Part shown: piece by piece, positions 5,583 to 64,000 of the stretch | Numbering within the stretch: position 1 is the stretch's first letter | How the letters are laid out: the number at the start of each line of letters is the position of its first letter | DNA from: a phage | Assembly: GCA_024682255.1 (NCBI GenBank) | Contig: GCA_024682255.1_4716.1 | DNA length: 64,000 nucleotides | Direction: 5' to 3' (one strand) | Translations under genes and position numbers: made by a program | The notes under the pieces: model-generated | The model's database searches: none | The model's input: the letters and a program-made list of their open reading frames with translations, nothing else | Told to the model about the DNA's origin: nothing

Positions 5583-5739
5583 AATCTCATTTCCTCTTCT
5601 ACGTTAGGATAGATGACATGTTGGATATACGTTGTCTTTGCATATATTGCTTTATTTCCGTCAGAAATAACGGAAAATAAAAACAACGACATAGTTCCCT
5701 CCCACCTCCACATGGGAGAGGGAGGGCTATTCGTGTTTA

Positions 5740-6102
5740 TTACTCGATGCTGTCTTCTTCCGTATCTTCCTCTTCGGAACCATCGAATGCACTCATTGTG
5801 ACGGTGGTATCCCAGTTAGCGGCGTAATCAGCCATCGCTTCACGCAGCGCTTCTTCACCAGCATCACCAGCCAGGTCAAGTACAACTAAACCTTGTGCGA
5901 CGTTTTGAGCAACGGTATCAATAACGGTTGCATCTTCTTCAAAACTACGTACCGGTTCAATGGTACCTACATCAACAGCGTAGTTCGTGGTTGCGGTGAG
6001 CACGGCGACTTGTAGCGCATTGCTATCTTCATCATGCAGTGCTGCTTCAATACCGATTGGACGAGCCAGTTCTTGCAGTGTTAATTTGCGAATTAAGTTC
6101 AT
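5740..6102 (-). CDS. hypothetical acidic protein (120 aa)
   Basis: ORF; acidic C-terminal tail EEEDTEEDSIE. Confidence 0.5.
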   Translation of the reverse strand: MNLIRKLTLQELARPIGIEAALHDEDSNALQVAVLTATTNYAVDVGTIEPVRSFEEDATVIDTVAQNVAQGLVVLDLAGDAGEEALREAMADYAANWDTTVTMSAFDGSEEEDTEEDSIE

Positions 6103-21043: not shown

Positions 21044-21268
21044 TTAGCAATGGTTGTTAGTTGCTTCTATTTCGTCAAGATACGGTTCTACGTCATCGCC
21101 CTCCACGAATTCGTTGAACCAACAGTCAATGGTAGAAATAACCGGTGACTGGTGTTCACATTTCTTAGATACCTTAAAAGGTACGTTATTATCCATCATA
21201 CCGAGTTCGGGTCGAAAACGCCCGAAATGTTTCGCAGTCCAAATGTCTGGGACGATATGGTTGTTCAT
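21044..21268 (-). CDS. RNA polymerase beta-prime N-terminal subunit, exon 3 (MNNHIVP...; 74 codons)
   Basis: MNNHIVPDIW...GMMDNN aligns with the segment immediately after the catalytic DGD in beta-prime (E. coli DGDQMAVHVPL...LMMSTNN; Rpb1 DGDEMNLHVP). Frame is closed by TAG 3 codons upstream of the annotated ATG, so it cannot be contiguous with exon 1. Proposed 3' splice site after G21269; alternative after G21281. Confidence 0.55.
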   Translation of the reverse strand: MNNHIVPDIWTAKHFGRFRPELGMMDNNVPFKVSKKCEHQSPVISTIDCWFNEFVEGDDVEPYLDEIEATNNHC

Positions 21269-21623
21269 CGTGGTGTTCAGCATGAGTCGCTACCTCATAC
21301 CCGCAGCTTTACCTGCAGCTTCCGGTGTTACCGGAATGTCCAGAATACATCTTATCCATATTCCAAATGGAACGTAGGACTTCCGCGCTGGATCTCGCTT
21401 GAGACCACGTATTCGTTGAACGTTCTCCTGAACGGAGCTTCGCTGCTGATCGAACATTGTCACGTACGGTAGGCGTCCCCGAAGGGATTGTCATTGAAGC
21501 CGCGTACATCCGCTACCTTGTTTCTACCTTATCGGTTCCTCTTACGAGGCGTAGCGGCCTTAGCCCTTCCCAGCAATTCACGGAATCCAAGCTCTTCCTT
21601 TCGGAAGGCAGGGCCTATGATTA
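21269..21623 (-). ncRNA. group I intron B (ORF-less, about 355 nt) in beta-prime gene
   Basis: Minus-strand core elements in canonical order: P GAATTGCTGGGAAG (21566-21579), Q GATCAGCAGCGAAGC (21437-21451; P4 TTGCTG/CAGCAG), R GTTCAACGAATACG (21408-21421), S AAGATGTATTCTGG (21340-21353; P7 GAATAC/GTATTC); ends in G. Its 5' guide (P1) pairing was not identified, so boundaries are provisional. Confidence 0.5.
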
Positions 21624-21636
21624 AGCGTCACCGTCG
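21624..21636 (-). CDS. RNA polymerase beta-prime N-terminal subunit, 13-nt mini-exon encoding (F)DGDA
   Basis: Minus-strand cgacggtgacgct lies 8 nt after the HNH stop; first 6 nt CGACGG pair with intron A guide CCGTCG (P10); joined to exon 1 it restores YNADF-DGD; genomic continuation is GCT TAA (stop), so a second splice is required. Confidence 0.5.
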
Positions 21637-23051
21637 CTGTAGTTTAATTTGGTCGAACGTATTCCAATTTCAATCCATGCCAATTACCGCCTTTACTAAT
21701 AGCGGTACTTATCGTAGTCGGATGTACTTTATGTTCTTCAGCAAGGGCGAATCTATCAGGATAGACTTTATGTGTACCATCCTCAAACACCACCTTTACT
21801 GGGAACCTTTGTAATCCACCAGTTTTTGGTCTAGGCTCTTTAGGAATATATTTACACTCGTTCACATCACCAGGATAATTCCTTGTCCACCATGCTTTCC
21901 AACCGTTTCTGGAAAACGTCTTATCTCCATGACATAAGCTATGGCTTAATGTCGCATAACTCACTCCCGCCATTGTTGCCGCCATTACGGTACTTTCCAT
22001 GTGGTACTTGTCTCCATCGGGCGATATTAAAACCAGCCCGCCGTAAATAACATACGACTTACCGACGTCTTCGGATGTGAAACCAACAAATTCCATTCCA
22101 TGGGTAGCCGCATCGTAATACTTCATCAACGGCCATTGTCGTGTTGTACGGAACCATTTTGAAATCTGGGTGTGTGGGATACCGTAACACTTGGCTGCAT
22201 CACGCATGCTGTAATGTTCGGTTATCTCACCAGTTCTCAAATCCTTTATCCATACGGTTTTAGCTTTCCAGTTCAAGCCGGTACGATAGGCATGGTACGT
22301 ATTTTGGGATTGACTTGTCCATTCAAGATTATCCAGGCGGTTGTTATCTTTAACTCCATCAAGATGGTTACCTACTAACATTGATCCCTCAGGAAGCATA
22401 GGTTTTTCACGAAAGGTTGATAGAACAACATGATGAGCTGCTATATCTCTACCTTCATGTCTAACCCTTACATATCCGAATATGTTAGTTTTTCCTACTT
22501 CCTCTCCAGTATAGGCATCTATAATGACACCCTCCTCGGAAGCGGCAAGTCCTGGATAATCTTTACAGTGGTAAAATCCTGGGAATTTTGTCTCTCTAAG
22601 TTTCATCTTCTCTCCGTTATCGGCCAACAGAGAGAAAACGTTCCTCGGAGGCCGACGTTTTCAAATTAAACTATGTTATCGACTATATCTTCATCCTCAT
22701 TGCGAGGAGACTCTCGTTTGGGTTTGTGTTTAACAAAGCCTACTCTACTCAACATCGCGTCTTTCGATAGTCTGTGAGCACACATCTTAACGAATATTCG
22801 TAGATTCCTACAGGCAGGTGAATATTCTTGTTGAGATGCTTCGCTGCGGATTATTCCCGTCCTACCTCTTTTACCATACCCAGGTCATTACGCTGGCCCT
22901 CATCTATGTCACCATGATGAGTTGGTGTGTAGTCCGATTACAGAAACTTCCCGTCAATTAGAGAGTTTTAACTATGCTCCTGTTACCAGGAACCCGACTC
23001 CGACGGCATCAATAAATCAACGTAAGTTATTGATTTAATTGAAGAAATTGG
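21637..23051 (-). mobile_element. group I intron A (about 1.4 kb) carrying an HNH homing endonuclease gene, inserted in the beta-prime NADFDGD codons
   Basis: Minus strand: guide CCGTCG-GAGTCGG (23006-22994) pairs with exon 1 end CCGACTT (P1, U-G at splice site) and exon 2 start CGACGG (P10); P2 hairpin TCCTGGTAACAGGA; P TAATTGACGGGAAG (22947-22960); Q AATCCGCAGC (22843-22852; P4 with bulged A); R GCTCACAGACTAT (22767-22779); S AAGATATAGTC (22681-22691; P7 GACTA/TAGTC); HEG in 3' extension; terminal G at 21637. Confidence 0.8.
21644..22627 (-). CDS. HNH homing endonuclease (intron-encoded)
   Basis: 327-aa ORF; HNH motif HHVVL...VGNHLDGVKDNNRLDNLEW; sits between intron A core and 3' splice site; annotated start is TTG, first ATG 21 nt downstream (MKLRETK...). 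Confidence 0.8.
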   Translation of the reverse strand: MADNGEKMKLRETKFPGFYHCKDYPGLAASEEGVIIDAYTGEEVGKTNIFGYVRVRHEGRDIAAHHVVLSTFREKPMLPEGSMLVGNHLDGVKDNNRLDNLEWTSQSQNTYHAYRTGLNWKAKTVWIKDLRTGEITEHYSMRDAAKCYGIPHTQISKWFRTTRQWPLMKYYDAATHGMEFVGFTSEDVGKSYVIYGGLVLISPDGDKYHMESTVMAATMAGVSYATLSHSLCHGDKTFSRNGWKAWWTRNYPGDVNECKYIPKEPRPKTGGLQRFPVKVVFEDGTHKVYPDRFALAEEHKVHPTTISTAISKGGNWHGLKLEYVRPN

Positions 23052-24307
23052 AAGTCGGCATTGTAGCCTTTCAAGATCATCACGCTTAACCCGATGGTGT
23101 TATCCTGCGGATCGCGTTTAACCTTGGTGATTTCAAGACATTGGTTACTGCTTCGGTCAAGTGATGGGTTTCGAACAAAGCCGCACACAATCCCATCGAA
23201 CGGTGTATCAGCAATAAGCTCATCATGCAGCTCACTCATCATCGGATGATAATTACGGACATGTTCCGCAACGAACGCACGTGCTGCTCTTGGTGAATAA
23301 CCACGATGGAATAACTTGGATTGGATATGTTCTTTATTGGTTAAAGTAAATGGCGCGTATGGGAAATGCAGATGATAATAACGATGGTTCGCTGTTATCG
23401 AACTGATTACGGTACGCGTGGTGAATGGATGTAATGTACCTAATATGTTTTTACGTGTGATACCTTTCTTCTTACCGATGAACTCATCGAAAATAGCTGC
23501 GTGGTATTGCAGCAGCTTCAATTGCACTTTCGCCATCCAGTTTTCTTTCTTTCTGGCGCTCAAAGGTGTTGTTGGATGATAGATGCTATTCAGTGTACCA
23601 ATAGCATCGATCGCACCTTCCATTTTGCTATCCGCATAACGACCGGTTGGCGTATTCTCGATAACGAACATCATGGCTGCAGGAAAGCTGATATACTGAC
23701 TGAAGAACTTATCACGATGGATACGGATGAATTCTCGTAGCGTGTCAACTTTCTCCGTGTTCTTCGGTCCACGTAACGTCGGTCCTTTATACAAGATCTC
23801 CATGATGCGATCGAAGTTCTGTATAAAGCTATTTACGCCGCGACGTATCCCGAATACATCGAATTGCTGCTCCAGATAGTTCTTGAGTTCGATGGGTCGT
23901 TTTACATTTGGACGGTAACTGGCATCAATGAGCCACGTCATCGTTTCAAAGCTTTTGATATTCAACTCGCTTGCCAGCACGAGATGGACCAACGGGTTAA
24001 TGAACGCATCGATTCCTTCAGGAACACGCGCCCACACCGTCGAACGAATCTCTTGTTCTGCTGGGTAGGTTACAACCGTTTTACAGTTCGGACACACCGT
24101 GCCGAGCAGCTCACCACGATTGTAGAAACCGCAACCACATTGTGGTGTGATATCCAACGTATCGCTGGAGTAAACACGGGTGATGAAACTGTTTAATTTC
24201 TTCTTCTCTTCGACGACTTTTGTATCGTAATCATTCAACAAAATCGGCGTAAAAGGAAGTTCTGCGAGCTGTCTATCGAAACTCACGATATCGAGCATGA
24301 TGGCCAT
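23052..24307 (-). CDS. RNA polymerase beta-prime N-terminal subunit, exon 1
   Basis: ATG at 24307 with AGGAGA RBS; Zn finger CGCGFYNRGELLGTVCPNCK (like beta-prime Cys70-88); RNPSLDRSSNQ ~ NRAPTLHRLGIQ; ORF runs ...MILKGYNADF then QFLQLNQ-stop, truncating the universal NADFDGD motif; exon taken to end after the TT of the Phe codon (23052). Confidence 0.75.
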
Positions 24308-24399: not shown

Positions 24400-26295
24400 T
24401 TAGAACAGGTTGAATGCCCCACCCATGTTGTTAACGCCAACATTCGGACGATCGCTACGTGCGTAGATGTTACCGGAGATGTTACCCAGACCACGAGCAC
24501 GTGCTGCCATGTTACCACGAACAGCGGTACCTGCCAGGTGCTGGATGTTCTCAGGACGGATGGTGAAGCCAGCATCAGCCGCAGCTTCGATCAGCGCCTG
24601 CAGTGCTAACGGATCGAAGTCGTAACGCATTGCCCAGCCGGTTTGTTCCCAGCTACCAGACAGAACACGATCAATGATTTCGTGACGAGCGACAACACGC
24701 TGAGACATCGTCATATCGGTACGGTCGAAGCTGTCTTCCCAAGCTTCTACGGTATCCGGGTTAGTGATGTTCATCATGTACAGATCGTCCATATCACGAA
24801 TATCGTGACGGTGACCATCCTGGTGGTTGTAGTAACCCAGCGGGATACGGTTACCGGTAGCGTAGACCAGCGGTTGGCCGTATTGATATTTCTTGCTGAA
24901 GCAACCCAGGGTAGTATCATCGAATGCACGGAAGAGGGCTTTGTAACCTTCGGAGATTTCTTGAACTTTACCGTCAACGTTGCCCGTATAGATCTTCTCA
25001 GCCGCCGGGATCATACGCAGCAGCCAGCTATACTCGCCTTCTTCCGGTACGTCGATAGAAATCAGCAGAGACGGATACAGAACCTGTTGCAGGAACTTGT
25101 AAATCTGCTCGTTGGTTTGCGTAGACAGATCCAGCGGTGCAGTCACTTCAGGATCCAGCACCATCGCCAGAGCACCTGGGTTATGCGGACCAATACCACG
25201 AGCCGCGTTGCTGATTAAAGACTGTGCCCATGCCATGCCGCTGTTCAGCGTAGCGATGGTACCAATCAGACCCAGCACGAAGCTGTTCGGTGTGAACGCA
25301 TCCAGCTCCAGCGGGTAAACGCTGGTCATCACGTAACGCGGCTGGTATTGTACAGTCGGCGGTACCGGATAGCCGTTAACCAGAACAGGGCCTTGGTTGA
25401 AGGTCGGGTTCTGCGGGCTGTAGGTCAGGTCAATGTAACCGGTGGTGGCGACCAGACGCTGTTGACTATCGTAATCGCTCATCGCTTGACGGATGCGGTT
25501 AGAGATAGTTACAGTGATGTCAGAACGCACAGGGTTACCAACAATATCGCTGTCCTGCATACCGCTGGTGTTGTACTGAACGCTGCTGATTGGCTGATCG
25601 CTTGCCATCATGCCCAGGTTGAACTGCGGCAGACCCAGTTTATCACCGAGACGGATTTCGATCGCGGTTTGGATTGCGTTATCTGCAGCAGACAGCAGGG
25701 TGGTTGCCAGATGCGCAGATTCAGCGGTGATTTCATTGGTCACCACAGCCAGACCAGCGATACGAACAGTACCGTTAGACTTACCGCCAATAGCTGAGTA
25801 CATTGCCGCCATGACTTCGTTGATGAACGTACCGTTCAGGTTATCAACCCAGGTACGCGGTACCAGAATGTTACCATGCGGACCTTGTTCTTCACGACGC
25901 GGCAGCGGAGCCAGACCAGCAACCAGCGGCAGGACGTAACCGAAGAAGTGGTTATGATCACCAACTTTTGCACCGCTCATAACAACCAGGGTCGGATACG
26001 GTACGCTGTACTGGTTCGGGTCAACCGCAACAAAGATGAAGTCGTCTTTGAACTGGGTATCTTCCAGATATTTCTCCATCAGACGACGGAGATTCAGTAC
26101 CTGCTCGGAGCCGGTATTACGGCTGATACGACGGCTCAGTGTACGGTTGATCGTACGCATCGTATGAGTTACTTTAGGACGGTCGGCAAAATCTGCAGCG
26201 GTTTCCAGCGCCTCATCAGCACGTTGTGCGGTGCGGGTTTCAGCTGCACGAATTTCTACATTATCGTTACCGTTATTACGTACGTCTAAGCCCAT
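24400..26295 (-). CDS. abundant early protein; candidate phage-nucleus shell protein (chimallin-like)
   Basis: 631 aa; ATG with AAGAGGA RBS; strongly biased codon usage (CGT/GGT/CTG/AAC) typical of highly expressed genes; TATATTAC early-promoter motif about 72 nt upstream; immediately upstream of beta-prime N gene. Assignment rests on size and context only. Confidence 0.45.
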   Translation of the reverse strand: MGLDVRNNGNDNVEIRAAETRTAQRADEALETAADFADRPKVTHTMRTINRTLSRRISRNTGSEQVLNLRRLMEKYLEDTQFKDDFIFVAVDPNQYSVPYPTLVVMSGAKVGDHNHFFGYVLPLVAGLAPLPRREEQGPHGNILVPRTWVDNLNGTFINEVMAAMYSAIGGKSNGTVRIAGLAVVTNEITAESAHLATTLLSAADNAIQTAIEIRLGDKLGLPQFNLGMMASDQPISSVQYNTSGMQDSDIVGNPVRSDITVTISNRIRQAMSDYDSQQRLVATTGYIDLTYSPQNPTFNQGPVLVNGYPVPPTVQYQPRYVMTSVYPLELDAFTPNSFVLGLIGTIATLNSGMAWAQSLISNAARGIGPHNPGALAMVLDPEVTAPLDLSTQTNEQIYKFLQQVLYPSLLISIDVPEEGEYSWLLRMIPAAEKIYTGNVDGKVQEISEGYKALFRAFDDTTLGCFSKKYQYGQPLVYATGNRIPLGYYNHQDGHRHDIRDMDDLYMMNITNPDTVEAWEDSFDRTDMTMSQRVVARHEIIDRVLSGSWEQTGWAMRYDFDPLALQALIEAAADAGFTIRPENIQHLAGTAVRGNMAARARGLGNISGNIYARSDRPNVGVNNMGGAFNLF

Positions 26296-60618: not shown

Positions 60619-61769
60619 TTATTTAGCGTCGTTAAAGTAAATATCAACAGCTCGTTCCGTTGCGTAGAGGAGACCAAGATTCACAGTCCCAACCACTTCC
60701 GGTGAACCGATGATACGGTTAGCGATACTGGTGCCACTGAAGATAGCATCAAGGGTGTGCCCGTCTTCGGTTTTGTTCACACCATGACCCACGGAAGAGA
60801 CAACGGATTTCGCTTGAGCTGCGAAGGTACCTTTATCACCCATCCCCGCACCAAGGTCGTAACGCATGAAAATACGGATGGCGATCTGGTTCTCGCCTAA
60901 CGGATTACCGTCTATTCTCACGTTACTGTTATTGATACGCCCCGTTGTTGCTTCGTTGAGTTTCAGTTCCTTAACGCGTTTAGCTCGTGCTTTATCCGCT
61001 TCACCGACGAGCGCTGCCATGGTTTCACTCATATCCTCAATCTGAGCGCGGTACAGTACATCGATCTGTACAACTTCACCATGAACGTCAGCACGTGGGT
61101 TATACTGACTCATACGACGTAATGCTTCAACGGCTTCCTGACTCTCATCACTCAGATCGGTTGCAATCGGTTCTTCCAGTGTTGCAAGGATCGTTCGAGG
61201 TTCAACGTGATCGCCGATTTTCACGAGACCGCGAATGTTGAGATGGGCGTCAACGATAAGCGTACGGCTCTTAATCGATGGTGTTACGAGACGATCGGCA
61301 AGATTGTCGAAGATATACGAACTGTCCTCGTGGGTCTCTGGAATATCCAGAATACCGACAAGAGACAGCACGCCTGCGCGCCAAACAACCTGACCTGGGT
61401 TCCACCAGTCGCGTTTAAAATAAAGACGATGGAAAACCACCACATCCTGATCCTTAACGCGATCCCCGACTTTATAATCGGTAATGAGATCGTGAGGATA
61501 ATACTTACCTGGTCCTTTCCCGATTATCGTACCGAGCTGGAAAACCTCTTCCCCTAACTCTGGATCGTCGTACTGTATCGTCAGCGCAGTTTTGGTGACC
61601 TTCTTGACAACACCATCGCCTTGGGCGGCAGCTGCGAAGAGTTTACCAACACGATGCGCGATAACAGTCTCACCGCCGGTGCGCCACGGTTGTACATCGT
61701 AACCTTCAGCAGCAATCATGCGGTTGTGCTGTATACCTATAAATACCAATCTCTTGGGCGAATTTAGTT
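60619..61769 (-). CDS. RNA polymerase beta-like subunit (second beta gene), exon 2 / middle segment
   Basis: VGILDIPETHEDSSYIFDNL ~ E. coli [33 protein letters not shown] ~ SGTVIDVQVFTRD; IAIRIFMRYDLGAGMGDKGTF...SVVS ~ [29 protein letters not shown]. No ATG at ORF start (annotated start is TTG), frame open back to 61770; 5' boundary approximate. Confidence 0.6.
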
Positions 61770-62261
61770 CTTATTCAACATAATCGTACTATTACCAGAA
61801 TAAGACTGAGATTAGATTGTTCAGATAAGGTCGTTGCTTGAAACGATCGTTTCAGCGCTCATCTTATCCCGGAGGCGACGATAGGCACATCACCTCCCGC
61901 TTGCGCTCTCACGCAAGAGCAGACTATATCACATCTCGTTTCAAACGGTGCTTCTTCAGCACCTCAACGAGAGTTCACTTCTTCCCAGCGCATCCAGCGC
62001 CATTCTCTTATCCAAGGAGAATGCCTCACTCGAGGGGTACAGGGGGATGAATCCCTTAGTCGTTGAACCTTTACCTTAGAACGCTTCACAGCGATCCTTA
62101 GGTACTTGGCTGCGGATTGTCCTTAAGCTATTATCTGTTTTTATACCATACCGTCTTTCTTTTCAGAATCCGTTTTGGTCGATAACAGCGATGGATGTCT
62201 TCGCAATTCAGTGAATCTCATCTACATGTCGCCACATAGACGGACCCTGCTATTAAAAGCG
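61770..62261 (-). ncRNA. group I intron C (ORF-less, about 0.5 kb) in beta gene
   Basis: Minus-strand core elements in order: P TGAATTGCGAAGAC (62197-62210), Q AATCCGCAGC (62109-62118), R GTTCAACGACTAAG (62055-62068), S GATATAGTC (61922-61930; P7 GACTA/TAGTC); sits between two beta-homologous ORFs that are consecutive in the beta alignment; exact splice sites not resolved. Confidence 0.6.
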
Positions 62262-64000
62262 TTAATCATCTCTATCAGCAGCAGGTACTGCAAGTGCTGA
62301 TGTACTCATTATTGACGAGCTACCATCCGTTTTCTCGTCGTAGGGTTTCGTTTCACCGTATACAGACACAATGTTTGCGTTAGGTGCAAGGTAAGCAGAG
62401 ATACCTACGTCCCCACTATCCTTCGTACCTTCGGATACAACACCAATGTCCGACTTGTCGTATTCACGATCGCGTGCGCGTCGAAGCGATGTCTTTGAAC
62501 GACCCCCAATACCGGTCATCGTCGCTTCTTCACCCTGCTTGATATCCAGCATCGGGTTGGTTTCATCGATCACGATGGAAGCACTGTCGTCGAGAATTTG
62601 GTTCCAGACACTTACCGGACTGATTGAGATTTTCTGGCGATTTCCTTGACTGCTGTTCTCATTCTGACGAATAGCGCCAACCAGATCCTTATACACCAAT
62701 TCAGCGAACTTATCGTACGTTTTAAAACGTTGGTAGTTCACATCGTTCGTGTTAGGAGCCCAATCATCCAGAAGCAATTCAACAGCACGCAGTAACAACA
62801 TGGCGAAATCGGTAGGTTCTCCCATGTTCTGCAGCAACATACGGCTTACCGGATCAACGAAAAGACGCTCCATGAGTTCAAGTTCGCGTAAATGACGAAC
62901 CTTAAGTCCGGCACCATCGACAACGTTAAAATAGATATCTCGATTGTCAAAAGCGCCGCGAGCGTAACCAATGTAGTTACGGTATTCGTTAAACCCACCC
63001 AGCAACAACGTCGTCATGCGGTCGTCTTTACTGAAGATCAAACTTTCGTCGTCAAAGCTCACCGCGAATTCATCGGGTGCTAGACCCATACGAGAACCGC
63101 GAGGTACCGTACGATAGTTTGCTTTAAGATGTTCTAATAACGGGGTGAGTCCGCCCAGATAACTTAGAACAACACCGACCGGAATACGTACACCCATGAA
63201 TTCAAGATCGGCAGCTTCGATCGGCATCTTGGCCGCATTGATGCCGAAGAAATCAGGGAACGTCCCTACAGGTGTTGGTGTTTGTCCTGACTGACAGATA
63301 TAGAGCTGATTGCGTTTATCGATTGCTAAGAATTCACCCAGCGTGTTACGCGCAAACGTCAGGAGCCCTTCGGCTAACTGTTCGTTGAACCGATCTTCCC
63401 CAATGAACTCCGGTAGCGTTTTTATATCGAGACGTATATCCCAATCAGCAAATTGGATTTGGGTATAATTGCGCGCAAGCACAGCGAAGTAGTACGGAAC
63501 TTTGACAGCTGGATCAAAGACGTTACCACGTTTTAACGTGGTTAAGGGTGAGGACTTATCGTAATACATCGCTGTAAGTTGACGTGTTAGCCAACGACCC
63601 GCATTATTAACGACGCGCTCTGAACGTTTAACAAACACCTTACCGTAGGCGGTACTCAATGCAACTTCGGATGACGATACCTTTCTAATAGGTTTATCAA
63701 CACGTTGTTTACGCATCCGGTATTTGATGCCGTTAACGACATAAATGCCGTCCTTACGAACCTTCGGCAACATCACCGGGAACGTGGTCGGGACACCGCC
63801 TACAGGAGCCAGTTTAATCGTGATGACTTGATAATCCCCCATCACGTCAACGACATCTTCAACTTTATATCCCGTGACAGGGTAACCTGCCTGCTGTACC
63901 GCAACAACGGCAGCTGCGATGTCCTTTTGCATTACGTGTTCGACGTAATGTTTATCCCACACCGCGAGCGTCGATTTACATAAGCTCTTGTCGACGATAA
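62262..64000 (-). CDS. RNA polymerase beta-like subunit (second beta gene), exon 1; 5' end beyond window
   Basis: TGIGGRSKTSLRRARDREYDKSDIGVVSEGTKDSGDVGISAYLAPNANIVSVYGE ~ E. coli beta [52 protein letters not shown]; frame open to window edge (annotated start is GTG). Confidence 0.7.
   Translation of the reverse strand, partial: IVDKSLCKSTLAVWDKHYVEHVMQKDIAAAVVAVQQAGYPVTGYKVEDVVDVMGDYQVITIKLAPVGGVPTTFPVMLPKVRKDGIYVVNGIKYRMRKQRVDKPIRKVSSSEVALSTAYGKVFVKRSERVVNNAGRWLTRQLTAMYYDKSSPLTTLKRGNVFDPAVKVPYYFAVLARNYTQIQFADWDIRLDIKTLPEFIGEDRFNEQLAEGLLTFARNTLGEFLAIDKRNQLYICQSGQTPTPVGTFPDFFGINAAKMPIEAADLEFMGVRIPVGVVLSYLGGLTPLLEHLKANYRTVPRGSRMGLAPDEFAVSFDDESLIFSKDDRMTTLLLGGFNEYRNYIGYARGAFDNRDIYFNVVDGAGLKVRHLRELELMERLFVDPVSRMLLQNMGEPTDFAMLLLRAVELLLDDWAPNTNDVNYQRFKTYDKFAELVYKDLVGAIRQNENSSQGNRQKISISPVSVWNQILDDSASIVIDETNPMLDIKQGEEATMTGIGGRSKTSLRRARDREYDKSDIGVVSEGTKDSGDVGISAYLAPNANIVSVYGETKPYDEKTDGSSSIMSTSALAVPAADRDD

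What the first reader, a model, noticed from the sequence alone, without database searches (positions are those of the whole stretch)
21637..23051. Group I intron with an HNH homing endonuclease inserted in the catalytic NADFDGD codons of an RNA polymerase beta-prime gene
The beta-prime N-terminal ORF stops 8 codons after YNADF, inside the universal Mg-binding motif. On the minus strand, 45 nt downstream of the proposed 5' splice site, there is a 13-nt guide CCGTCG-GAGTCGG. Its 3' half pairs with the exon 1 end CCGACTT (P1, with U-G at the splice site) and its 5' half pairs with CGACGG, found 1.4 kb downstream right after a G (P10). Between them lie P, Q (AATCCGCAGC), R (GCTCACAGACTAT) and S (AAGATATAGTC) in canonical order, then an HNH endonuclease ORF. 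Joining at these sites yields ...YNADF-DGD..., restoring the active site.
Basis: partly seen in the sequence, partly recalled or inferred. Interest (0 to 1): 0.85.

Follow-up and report, generated by a model that had tools for sequence, protein, structure and literature searches.

The report
Two self-splicing introns flank catalytic micro-exon

Summary
Window 23051..21637 (minus strand) is a group I intron (Rfam RF00028, 54.8 bits, above the 50-bit cutoff). It carries an HNH endonuclease ORF and sits between NADF and DGD of the non-virion RNA polymerase beta-prime gene of a phage 97% identical to E. coli phage Goslar. Its 13-nt guide pairs 13/13 with the ligated exons and covaries with the exon in relatives.

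"Exon 2" is a 13-nt micro-exon (21636..21624). It is followed by a second, ORF-less group I intron (21623..21269) that routine Rfam scans miss. Comparative structure supports it: 98% of cells paired, and 32 of 105 pairs show compensatory changes.

Removing both introns gives a 497-aa protein that is:
- collinear with intron-less homologs;
- matched at DNA level by a close relative whose two sites are empty;
- present, residue for residue, in a public protein collection.

Related genomes show four intron insertion sites within 26 nt, up to three tandem introns with 13-nt micro-exons, and swapped or lost endonuclease cassettes.

Goslar's GenBank record already annotates intron 1, and phage RNAP introns with HNH genes are published. 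I found no description of the tandem architecture. Splicing and homing are inferred, not shown.

The parts
23052..24307 (-). Exon 1 of the nvRNAP beta-prime N-terminal subunit gene (ends ...GGC TAC AAT GCC GAC TT, phase 2 in the Phe codon)
   Evidence: ORF list. 100% identical to Goslar gp247 over 419 aa, and 260 phage records cover at least 80% of the spliced protein. PF00623 hit.
21637..23051 (-). Intron 1: group I intron, 1,415 nt, carrying an HNH ORF
   Evidence: Rfam RF00028 at 54.8 bits over 23041..22660. U23052.G23000 at the 5' splice site and omega-G at 21637. The core is 97% identical to Goslar's annotated Intron_gpI.
22994..23006 (-). Internal guide sequence of intron 1: CCGUCG (P10 half) + GAGUCGG (P1 half)
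   Evidence: 13/13 complementary to the ligated junction; 2 of 20,000 shuffles reach this. In L003/L008 the exon is CAGAUUU and the guide is GGAUCUG, two compensatory pairs.
23009..23042 (-). Hairpin inside the P1 loop (UCAAUUAAAUCAAU...GUUGAUUUAUUGA). Rfam's alignment mislabels it as P1.
22681..22852 (-). Catalytic core landmarks of intron 1: Q 22852..22843, R 22779..22767, S 22691..22681
   Evidence: Aligned to the conserved P4/P6/P7 columns of RF00028.
22662..22673 (-). 5' arm (UAGUUUAAUUUG) of the 12-bp stem that closes the ORF-containing loop
   Evidence: Perfect complement of 21651..21640. Goslar has a 14-bp perfect stem of unrelated sequence at the same place. ORF-less copies have only GAUAACAG here.
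21644..22606 (-). HNH (I-HmuI-like) endonuclease ORF, 320 aa from ATG 22606 (327 aa if from TTG 22627). Its stop codon lies in the 3' arm of the closing stem.
   Evidence: PF13392 HNH_3, 25.7 bits against a cutoff of 24.8. 29% identical to Goslar's intron HNH, 34% to the L012 intron HNH, 23% to PhiPA3 gp210 at E 3e-8. PDB 1U3E (I-HmuI) at E 0.0095.
21640..21651 (-). 3' arm (CAAAUUAAACUA) of the closing stem, 2 nt upstream of omega-G 21637
21624..21636 (-). 13-nt micro-exon C GAC GGT GAC GCT (completes Phe, then Asp-Gly-Asp-Ala). Bases 1-6 pair with intron 1's guide (P10); bases 11-13 pair with intron 2's guide (P1).
   Evidence: The same micro-exon with synonymous changes (CGACGGGGATGCT) occurs in L003.
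21269..21623 (-). Intron 2: ORF-less group I intron, 355 nt. P1 is GCU|UA with UAGGC (21617..21613); P2 21607..21594; P3 21586..21579 with 21387..21379; Q 21450..21442; R 21421..21410; S 21353..21342; P9 21337..21319; P9.1 21318..21301; 3' hairpin 21300..21280; 11-nt tail; omega-G at 21269.
   Evidence: Rfam 21.3 bits, E 0.015, in a local scan only; missed in whole-window scans. Six-sequence alignment: 98.1% of cells paired, 32 of 105 pairs with changes on both sides, slid controls at most 2. P7 is GAAUA/UAUUC, GAUCA/UGAUC or GAGUA/UACUC in three lineages.
21044..21268 (-). Exon 3 (ATG AAC AAC CAT... = MNNHIVPD... to the stop codon). The annotated 79-aa ORF 21283..21044 starts 15 nt inside intron 2.
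   Evidence: Collinear with intron-less homologs. Relatives call only a 74-aa ORF starting at MNNH.

Best explanation
The window comes from a Goslar-like nucleus-forming jumbo phage. [quoted passage not shown] Both lie in the codons of the catalytic loop G-Y-N-A-D-F-D-G-D-A-M-N.

Intron 1 (23051..21637). It recognises its 5' splice site through a 7-bp P1 between exon CCGACUU and guide GAGUCGG, with a U.G pair at the cleavage site. It aligns its 3' splice site through a 6-bp P10 between guide CCGUCG and the first six bases of the next exon. A 12-bp stem loops out a 1-kb cassette, which brings the terminal G next to the core. The cassette encodes an I-HmuI-like HNH endonuclease with its own ribosome-binding site.

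The micro-exon. The next exon is only 13 nt and encodes (F)DGDA.

Intron 2 (21623..21269). This ORF-less intron uses a short P1 (GCU|UA with UAGGC) on the last three bases of the micro-exon. It ends at G21269.

The product. Removing both introns gives a 497-aa protein with an intact NADFDGD Mg-binding motif.

What is shown:
- both ribozyme structures;
- the splice-site signatures;
- exact collinearity of the ligated product with intron-less alleles.

What is inferred:
- that splicing is autocatalytic in vivo;
- that the endonuclease nicks intron-less alleles of co-infecting relatives to drive homing, or to interfere with those phages, as shown for PhiPA3 gp210.
For: Intron 1:
- Rfam scores above the curated cutoff.
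- The guide pairs 13/13 with the junction, reached by 2 of 20,000 shuffles, and shows two compensatory exon/guide changes in L003/L008.
- ORF-less, HNH-A and HNH-B versions share a 92-97% identical core and the same splice sites.
- Independent closing stems flank the two cassettes.

Intron 2:
- It has the group I core order with the P3/P7 pseudoknot.
- 98.1% of cells pair and 32 of 105 pairs change on both sides, against at most 2 in slid controls and 0 of 500 shuffles.
- P1 is predicted independently by RNAalifold and shows compensatory changes.
- The 3' hairpin plus an 11-nt spacer to the terminal G is shared with the site-a intron (i0), whose 3' splice site is fixed by the reading frame.

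Ligated product:
- It is in frame.
- It aligns without gaps to 16 homologs. The two closest full-length intron-less ones (65% and 62% identical) read KGYNADFDGDAMNHH and TAYNADFDGDEMNNH.
- 260 phage records cover at least 80% of the spliced protein.
- The Pfam RNA_pol_Rpb1_2 match spans residues 371-428, across both junctions.
- Close relative L012 has both sites empty and reads AAT GCT GAT TTC GAC GGG GAC GCG ATG AAC AAC CAT.
- The exact 497-aa predicted protein is on record as P0075.

Precedent: a PhiPA3 intron-encoded HNH nicks the intron-less RNAP gene of phiKZ (PMC11620839).
Against: - No RNA data were available, so splicing itself is unobserved.
- Intron 2 scores only 21.3 bits against Rfam's model, below the 50-bit cutoff, and its P1 uses just three exon bases.
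- One relative (L007) has C rather than U at intron 2's 5' splice site. That would make a C-G pair where U.G is almost universal.
- ORF-less copies of intron 1 have no P9, which is atypical.
- The HNH Pfam score is barely above threshold and no NUMOD module was detected in the window's protein.
- P0075 could be an intron-less allele rather than spliced mRNA. It validates the junctions, not the chemistry.
Confidence: 0.88

Rival explanations
1. Only intron 1 splices. The beta-prime N-terminal module is then made as two polypeptides: a 423-aa chain ending ...NADFDGDA, and the 79-aa ORF (21283..21044) translated from its own start. The 355-nt spacer would be a decayed intron or an untranslated region.
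For: The intron 1 join runs into TAA right after GCT. GAGG lies 9 nt upstream of the ATG at 21283. Goslar's record annotates the 79-aa ORF as a separate CDS.
Against: - The spacer is under strong structural selection as a group I ribozyme.
- The GAGG and ATG lie inside a conserved hairpin whose stem covaries.
- In L007-type genomes that ATG is absent and only MNNH... is callable.
- A member of the same intron family (iA in L007) sits where the downstream piece is an 18-nt micro-exon that cannot be a separate protein.
- All homologs, and L012, are contiguous here.
Confidence: 0.05
2. One long intron from 23051 to 21269. Intron 1's 5' splice site is joined to intron 2's 3' splice site and the 13 nt between are skipped.
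For: Exon skipping by tandem group I ribozymes was reported for phage Twort (title cited as reference 45 in PMC11620839). Both splice sites are chemically compatible.
Against: The product would read GAC TT|A TGA, an immediate stop, and would lack the DGD that every homolog has. Intron 1's guide is complementary to CGACGG of the micro-exon, not to ATGAAC. This could occur as a by-product but cannot be the productive path.
Confidence: 0.02
3. The gene is a decaying pseudogene and the intron-like features are relics with no current splicing.
For: No expression data. Intron 2 is below Rfam's threshold.
Against: - The exons are 97-100% conserved at protein level across at least ten independent genomes, with synonymous changes only.
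- The guide covaries with synonymous exon changes.
- No second intact copy of this subunit is evident: the tblastn of the spliced protein hit Goslar only at this locus, in two exon pieces.
Confidence: 0.02

Closest known systems
Intron_gpI + HNH endonuclease annotated at the same locus of Escherichia phage vB_EcoM_Goslar (NC_048170 / MK327938)
   Same: Same gene, same insertion point and the same ribozyme core (97% identity). Goslar also has the same downstream intron 2 and micro-exon.
   Different: The endonuclease cassette is replaced. There is no DNA similarity over window 22675..21639, the proteins are 29% identical, and the closing stem has a different sequence. The Goslar record does not annotate intron 2, the micro-exon or the spliced CDS; it lists two separate CDSs.
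PhiPA3 gp210 intron in the virion RNAP beta gene (Birkholz et al. 2024, PMC11620839)
   Same: A group I intron with an HNH nicking endonuclease, inserted at catalytic-site codons of a chimallivirus multisubunit RNAP gene. The window's HNH is a detectable homolog (23% identity, E 3e-8).
   Different: Different RNAP (virion versus non-virion), different subunit (beta versus beta-prime) and different motif. That one is a single intron, not a tandem pair. Its activity is experimentally shown; activity is not shown here. The window also has an ORF-less intron at the PhiPA3-type site (after DRDD) in its own beta gene.
I-HmuI / I-HmuII introns in the DNA polymerase genes of Bacillus phages SPO1 and SP82 (Goodrich-Blair & Shub 1994, title cited as reference 37 in PMC11620839)
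   Same: Similar group I introns at one site carry highly divergent HNH ORFs. The endonuclease family is the same (PDB 1U3E hit).
   Different: Different host gene and phage group. No tandem introns or micro-exons there, as far as I recall.
Phage Twort orf142 with three group I introns (Landthaler & Shub 1999, title cited as reference 45 in PMC11620839)
   Same: [quoted passage not shown]
   Different: The paper was not readable here, so I could not compare exon sizes. In the present case the introns are packed 13 nt apart within a single catalytic motif, and configurations differ between near-identical genomes.
Mini-exons between group I/II introns in fungal and other mitochondrial genes (PMC8971849)
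   Same: Very short exons (down to 3 nt or 1 nt) flanked by self-splicing introns.
   Different: Those are organellar genes such as cox1, often maturase-dependent. I found no report of this in a phage or in an RNA polymerase active site.

Membership tests
Group I intron (Rfam RF00028): intron 1 | Covariance-model score at or above the curated gathering cutoff (50 bits) | tested here: met
   54.8 bits, E 3.7e-11, full model 1-253.
Group I intron: intron 1 | P1 helix between the 5' exon end and an internal guide, with U.G at the cleavage site; P10 with the 3' exon | tested here: met
   CCGACUU/GAGUCGG with U23052.G23000; CGACGG/CCGUCG. 13/13 positions pair. Two compensatory changes in L003/L008.
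Group I intron: intron 1 | Terminal guanosine (omega-G) immediately before the 3' splice site | tested here: met
   G21637. Also G in Goslar (GUAAG|) and in ORF-less copies (AACAG|).
Group I intron: intron 1 | P9 / P9.0 elements positioning the 3' splice site | tested here: inconclusive
   ORF-bearing copies have a 12- or 14-bp stem at this spot. ORF-less copies have only 8 nt between P7 and the splice site.
Group I intron: intron 2 | Covariance-model score at or above the curated cutoff | tested here: not met
   21.3 bits, E 0.015 in a 2.3-kb scan. Not reported in whole-window scans.
Group I intron: intron 2 | Conserved P3-P8 core with the P3/P7 pseudoknot, supported by covariation | tested here: met
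   105 pairs, 98.1% of cells paired, 32 pairs with changes on both sides; slid controls at most 2. P7 has three different complementary sequences.
Group I intron: intron 2 | U.G at the 5' splice site and omega-G at the 3' splice site | tested here: met
   U21624.G21615 and G21269 in the window. One relative (L007 iB) has C-G instead of U.G.
Group I introns: both | Exon ligation restores a continuous host reading frame, collinear with intron-less alleles | tested here: met
   In-frame 497-aa product. Gap-free alignment to homologs. L012 DNA with both sites empty. Exact protein on record as P0075.
Group I introns: both | Guanosine-dependent self-splicing | not testable with these tools
   Needs in vitro transcription with GTP/Mg, or RNA from infected cells.
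HNH homing endonuclease (I-HmuI-like) | HNH catalytic motif or domain | tested here: met
   PF13392, 25.7 bits against a cutoff of 24.8. The motif HH...NHLDG..DNNRLDNLEW...N..H is readable in the ORF. 1U3E hit at E 0.0095.
HNH homing endonuclease (I-HmuI-like) | NUMOD-type DNA-binding modules C-terminal to the HNH domain | tested here: inconclusive
   Not detected in the window protein at E <= 0.01. NUMOD1 is detected in the collinear Goslar homolog.
HNH homing endonuclease (I-HmuI-like) | Site-specific nicking of the intron-less allele and intron mobility | not testable with these tools
   Indirect only: presence/absence polymorphism of the introns and cassettes among genomes 95-99% identical in the exons.
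Multisubunit RNAP beta-prime (chimallivirus nvRNAP beta-prime N-terminal subunit, PhiPA3 gp054-like) | Rpb1 domain 2 with the NADFDGD Mg-binding loop; conserved position next to chimallin | tested here: met
   PF00623, 36.9 bits against a cutoff of 25.3 on the spliced protein. tblastn hits to PhiPA3 gp054 and to features annotated as nvRNAP beta-prime. The chimallin gene lies directly upstream.

The most novel reading that the evidence does not exclude
The 26 bases encoding G-Y-N-A-D-F-D-G-D-A of this polymerase may be an arena of intron-versus-intron conflict.

Endonuclease-bearing introns at sites a and c attack empty alleles of co-infecting relatives. The small ORF-less introns at sites b and d, and ORF-less derivatives at a and c, would persist because they break up the endonucleases' recognition sequence and so immunise their carrier. 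That would explain why the commonest genotype (84 contigs) carries two endonuclease-free introns bracketing an 18-nt micro-exon.

The intron 2 family may also have colonised a second site by reverse splicing. Sites b and d both follow an Ala codon GCU that matches its 3-nt guide.
Probability: 0.2. Interest if true: 0.7.

Novelty: new member of a known kind. Interest (0 to 1): 0.45.

Why it matters
- Annotation. In Goslar-like phages this essential polymerase subunit is currently recorded as a truncated "beta subunit" plus an unrelated 79-aa hypothetical protein. The correct product needs two splices and a 13-nt exon. Standard Rfam scans see only one of the two introns, so similar tandem introns are probably under-called elsewhere.

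- Biology. Goslar is a tractable E. coli model for nucleus-forming phages, in which transcription is separated from translation. Two adjacent ribozymes must each find a few bases of one 13-nt exon without help from ribosomes. That makes a clean test case for group I folding and for the order of splicing.

- Evolution. Near-identical genomes carry four insertion sites, three diverged endonuclease cassettes and ORF-less derivatives. This is a natural experiment on homing, cassette turnover and the "intron endonuclease as a weapon" idea demonstrated for PhiPA3 and phiKZ.

Tried and rejected
1. Frame-preserving alternatives for intron 2's splice sites. I tried a 5' site after GCUU, and 3' sites after CAUG or UAG. 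These add residues absent from all homologs, give the wrong frame or lack a terminal G, so I rejected them.
2. For the side intron at 62 kb I first placed the 3' splice site at 61729 (DD|HNRM). Goslar's intron-less gene showed this was wrong, and the site is after G61759.
3. Aligning the site-a intron (i0) with the intron 2 family failed outside the 3' end, so I excluded it from the covariation count.
4. Searches for an intron-less Goslar-like allele or spliced cDNA at DNA level found nothing: IMG/VR pattern scan, complete E. coli genomes and PLSDB plasmids.
6. An nhmmer scan of the window with the intron 2 profile found no further copies. A whole-window permissive Rfam scan found no further introns.
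7. Pfam found nothing in the two halves of the large beta-like gene, so its identity rests on Goslar's annotation.
8. Literature searches for Goslar introns, for NADFDGD plus intron, and for phage mini-exons found no description of this arrangement. The Twort paper could not be read.
Full report
WHAT THE WINDOW IS

The region is 97% identical in DNA to Escherichia phage vB_EcoM_Goslar, a nucleus-forming jumbo phage (chimallivirus). The gene in question lies directly downstream of the chimallin (nuclear shell) gene.

Its spliced product matches PhiPA3 gp054 and genes annotated as non-virion RNA polymerase beta-prime in RAY, Noxifer and others. In 260 phage records one match covers at least 80% of the spliced protein. 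The product also hits Pfam RNA_pol_Rpb1_2 above threshold. So the host gene is the N-terminal beta-prime module of the phage's non-virion RNAP.

CHECKING THE OBSERVATION

- Exon 1 (24307..23052, minus strand) ends ...GGC TAC AAT GCC GAC TT. Read-through stops after QFLQLNQ.
- The 13-nt guide CCGUCG-GAGUCGG is at 23006..22994, 45 nt into the intron.
- It is complementary at 13 of 13 positions to the proposed ligated junction CCGACUU^CGACGG, with U.G at the cleavage site. Only 2 of 20,000 shuffles of the first 150 intron bases do as well.
- The ORF is an HNH endonuclease. It hits PF13392 above cutoff. It is 29% identical to Goslar's intron-encoded HNH and 23% to the characterised PhiPA3 gp210, and it gives a weak hit to I-HmuI, PDB 1U3E.
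- Its likely start is ATG 22606 behind a GGAG, not TTG 22627.

The proposed join reads GAC TTC GAC GGT GAC GCT TAA: NADFDGDA, then stop. The rest of the domain (MNNHIVPD...) lies 355 nt further on, in what Goslar's record calls a separate 79-aa hypothetical protein.

A local Rfam scan gives a sub-threshold group I hit on the intervening stretch (21.3 bits, E 0.015). Whole-window scans miss it.

I therefore modelled three pieces:
- a 13-nt micro-exon (21636..21624, C GAC GGT GAC GCT);
- a second intron (21623..21269);
- exon 3 starting at ATG 21268.

The product is in frame and 497 aa long.

EVIDENCE THAT INTRON 2 IS REAL

Related genomes supplied three lineages of this intron: window/Goslar/L003/L008, and iB and iA from L007.

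On their alignment I counted a group I structure that includes the P3/P7 pseudoknot. It pairs 98.1% of cells, and 32 of 105 pairs change on both sides. Slid controls give at most 2, and 0 of 500 shuffles reach the observed value. P7 alone has three different mutually complementary versions: GAAUA/UAUUC, GAUCA/UGAUC and GAGUA/UACUC.

RNAalifold independently predicts a 5-bp P1 (GCU|UA with UAGGC), with U.G at the splice site and compensatory changes on the intron side.

The intron ends with a covarying hairpin followed by 11 nt and a G. The same hairpin and spacing occur in the site-a intron, whose 3' splice site is fixed by the reading frame. The GAGG and ATG that make the 79-aa ORF look like a gene lie inside that hairpin. 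In L007-type genomes the ATG is absent and gene callers find only a 74-aa ORF starting at MNNH.

EVIDENCE FOR THE JUNCTIONS

1. The spliced protein aligns without gaps to 16 homologs. The two closest full-length intron-less ones (65% and 62% identical) read KGYNADFDGDAMNHHSAPD and TAYNADFDGDEMNNHIPPD (DNA).
2. A close relative from a metagenome, L012, has both sites empty. It reads AAT GCT GAT TTC GAC GGG GAC GCG ATG AAC AAC CAT.
3. An exact-sequence look-up found my predicted 497-aa protein, first to last residue, in the public collection. It is P0075, called on one 1,864-nt Logan contig. I could not fetch that contig, so it is either a fully intron-less allele or assembled spliced mRNA. Either way both junctions are right.
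4. In L003/L008 the exon differs synonymously (GCA GAT TT instead of GCC GAC TT) and intron 1's guide has changed to match (GGAUCUG instead of GAGUCGG). That gives two compensatory pairs.

THE WIDER PICTURE

Ten related loci fall into four configurations. Taking the contiguous sequence AAAGGGT^AT AAT GCT^GAT TT^C GAC GGG GAC GCG^ATG, there are four insertion sites (a, b, c, d) within 26 nt.

- Window and Goslar: c (with HNH) + d.
- L003, L008, L010, L011 and L014: a + c + d, all ORF-less. This is three tandem introns separated by two 13-nt micro-exons. In the first micro-exon, bases 2-6 pair with the upstream intron's guide and bases 7-13 with the downstream intron's guide.
- L007 and L013: an intron at site b. 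L007 also has one at d, leaving an 18-nt micro-exon; the L013 locus ends before site d.
- L012: a only, carrying a third HNH gene in its P1 loop.

Read-through protein variants in the 159-member cluster suggest the site-b type is the commonest, on 84 contigs.

The three HNH proteins are collinear but only 27-34% identical. The ribozyme cores and exons around them are 92-99% identical.

In window and Goslar the cassette sits between P7 and the 3' splice site. It is closed by a perfect stem of 12 bp (22673..22662 with 21651..21640) and 14 bp respectively, with unrelated sequences. ORF-less copies have just GAUAACAG at that spot.

This is the pattern of similar introns carrying highly divergent ORFs, described for HMU-phage DNA polymerase introns (title cited in PMC11620839).

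HOW IT MOST LIKELY WORKS

The pre-mRNA folds into two ribozymes.

- Intron 1 binds the last 7 nt of exon 1 (P1) and the first 6 nt of the micro-exon (P10). Its closing stem brings omega-G 21637 to the core.
- Intron 2 binds the last 3 nt of the micro-exon. The two guides use non-overlapping parts of the 13-nt exon.
- Two rounds of guanosine-initiated transesterification give the mRNA for a 497-aa subunit with an intact Mg-binding loop.
- The HNH protein, translated from its own start, presumably nicks unoccupied alleles in co-infecting relatives. This would promote homing or, as shown for PhiPA3 gp210 against phiKZ (PMC11620839, PMC12908238), damage a competitor.

The ribozyme structures, the splice signals and the product are shown. 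The chemistry and the endonuclease's activity and target are inferred from family membership.

COMPARISON WITH WHAT IS KNOWN

- Goslar's GenBank and RefSeq records already carry "Intron_gpI" and "HNH endonuclease" at this locus. Intron 1 as such is therefore known at annotation level.
- Introns in chimallivirus RNAP genes are published: the PhiPA3 vRNAP beta gp209/211 with gp210 (PMC11620839) and the PhiPA3 nvRNAP gp65-66 (PMC11077065).
- Endonuclease genes next to RNAP genes were long ago predicted to be intronic in phiKZ, but no splicing was seen there (PMC10914365).
- Multiple introns in one phage gene are known from Twort. Mini-exons of a few bases are known in mitochondria (PMC8971849).

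What I could not find described:
- the second intron;
- the 13-nt catalytic micro-exon;
- the four-site, four-configuration polymorphism;
- the window's distinct HNH cassette.

I rate the finding a new member of a known kind, with an architectural twist that deserves a note.

OPEN POINTS

- L007's intron at site d would have a C-G instead of a U.G splice-site pair.
- ORF-less intron 1 has no P9.
- The nature of the P0075 contig is unknown.
- The idea that ORF-less introns protect against the endonucleases is speculation.

Noticed in passing
window 62264..61759 (-): A third group I intron, 506 nt and ORF-less (Rfam 56.3 bits over 62266..61900). It interrupts the large RNAP beta-like gene (homolog of Goslar gp207) immediately after ...AADRDD. 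Goslar lacks it, and the exon junction is exactly collinear (24 nt = 24 nt, DD|PKRLVFIGIQHNRM against DDGKRLVFVGIQHNRM). By the description in PMC11620839, this is the same site as the PhiPA3 gp210 intron (after two conserved aspartates).
   Followed up: partly
window 22675..21639 (-) compared with L001 4723..5787: Between two phages 97% identical on both sides, the intron's endonuclease cassette is completely replaced. The proteins are 29% identical, and each cassette brings its own perfect closing stem (12 bp and 14 bp, unrelated sequences). Relatives have an ORF-less version of the same intron.
   Followed up: yes
L003 1468..1833; L008 5244..5608; L012 6644..8024 (-): Some Goslar-like genomes carry an additional group I intron 13 nt upstream of intron 1, after AAAGGGU. 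It is ORF-less in L003, L008, L010, L011 and L014. In L012 it has a 323-aa HNH gene in its P1 loop. This gives three tandem introns with two 13-nt micro-exons.
   Followed up: partly
L007 5252..5601 and 5620..5976: Another configuration: an intron of the intron 2 family sits after AAC GCT (N-A|D), 5 nt upstream of intron 1's site, and a second one at intron 2's site. This leaves an 18-nt micro-exon GACTTTGACGGTGATGCC. The second intron would have a C-G rather than a U.G splice-site pair.
   Followed up: partly
window 21283..21044 (-) and Goslar gp185 / gp247: The public Goslar annotation lists exon 1 read-through as an "RNA polymerase beta subunit" CDS and exon 3 as a separate 79-aa hypothetical protein. 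The first 15 nt of that ORF and its apparent ribosome-binding site lie inside a conserved hairpin of intron 2.
   Followed up: yes
protein cluster of window 24307..23027: The 159-member cluster of exon-1 read-through proteins comes largely from isolate assemblies labelled Salmonella, E. coli, Shigella and Enterobacter, with contigs of about 240 kb. Goslar-like phages evidently travel with clinical or food isolates. One member (P0081...KGSTLICNFV) points to yet another intron type at site a.
   Followed up: no
window 24400..26295 (-): A 631-aa ORF directly upstream is the chimallin (phage nuclear shell) gene, which identifies the window as a nucleus-forming phage.
   Followed up: partly
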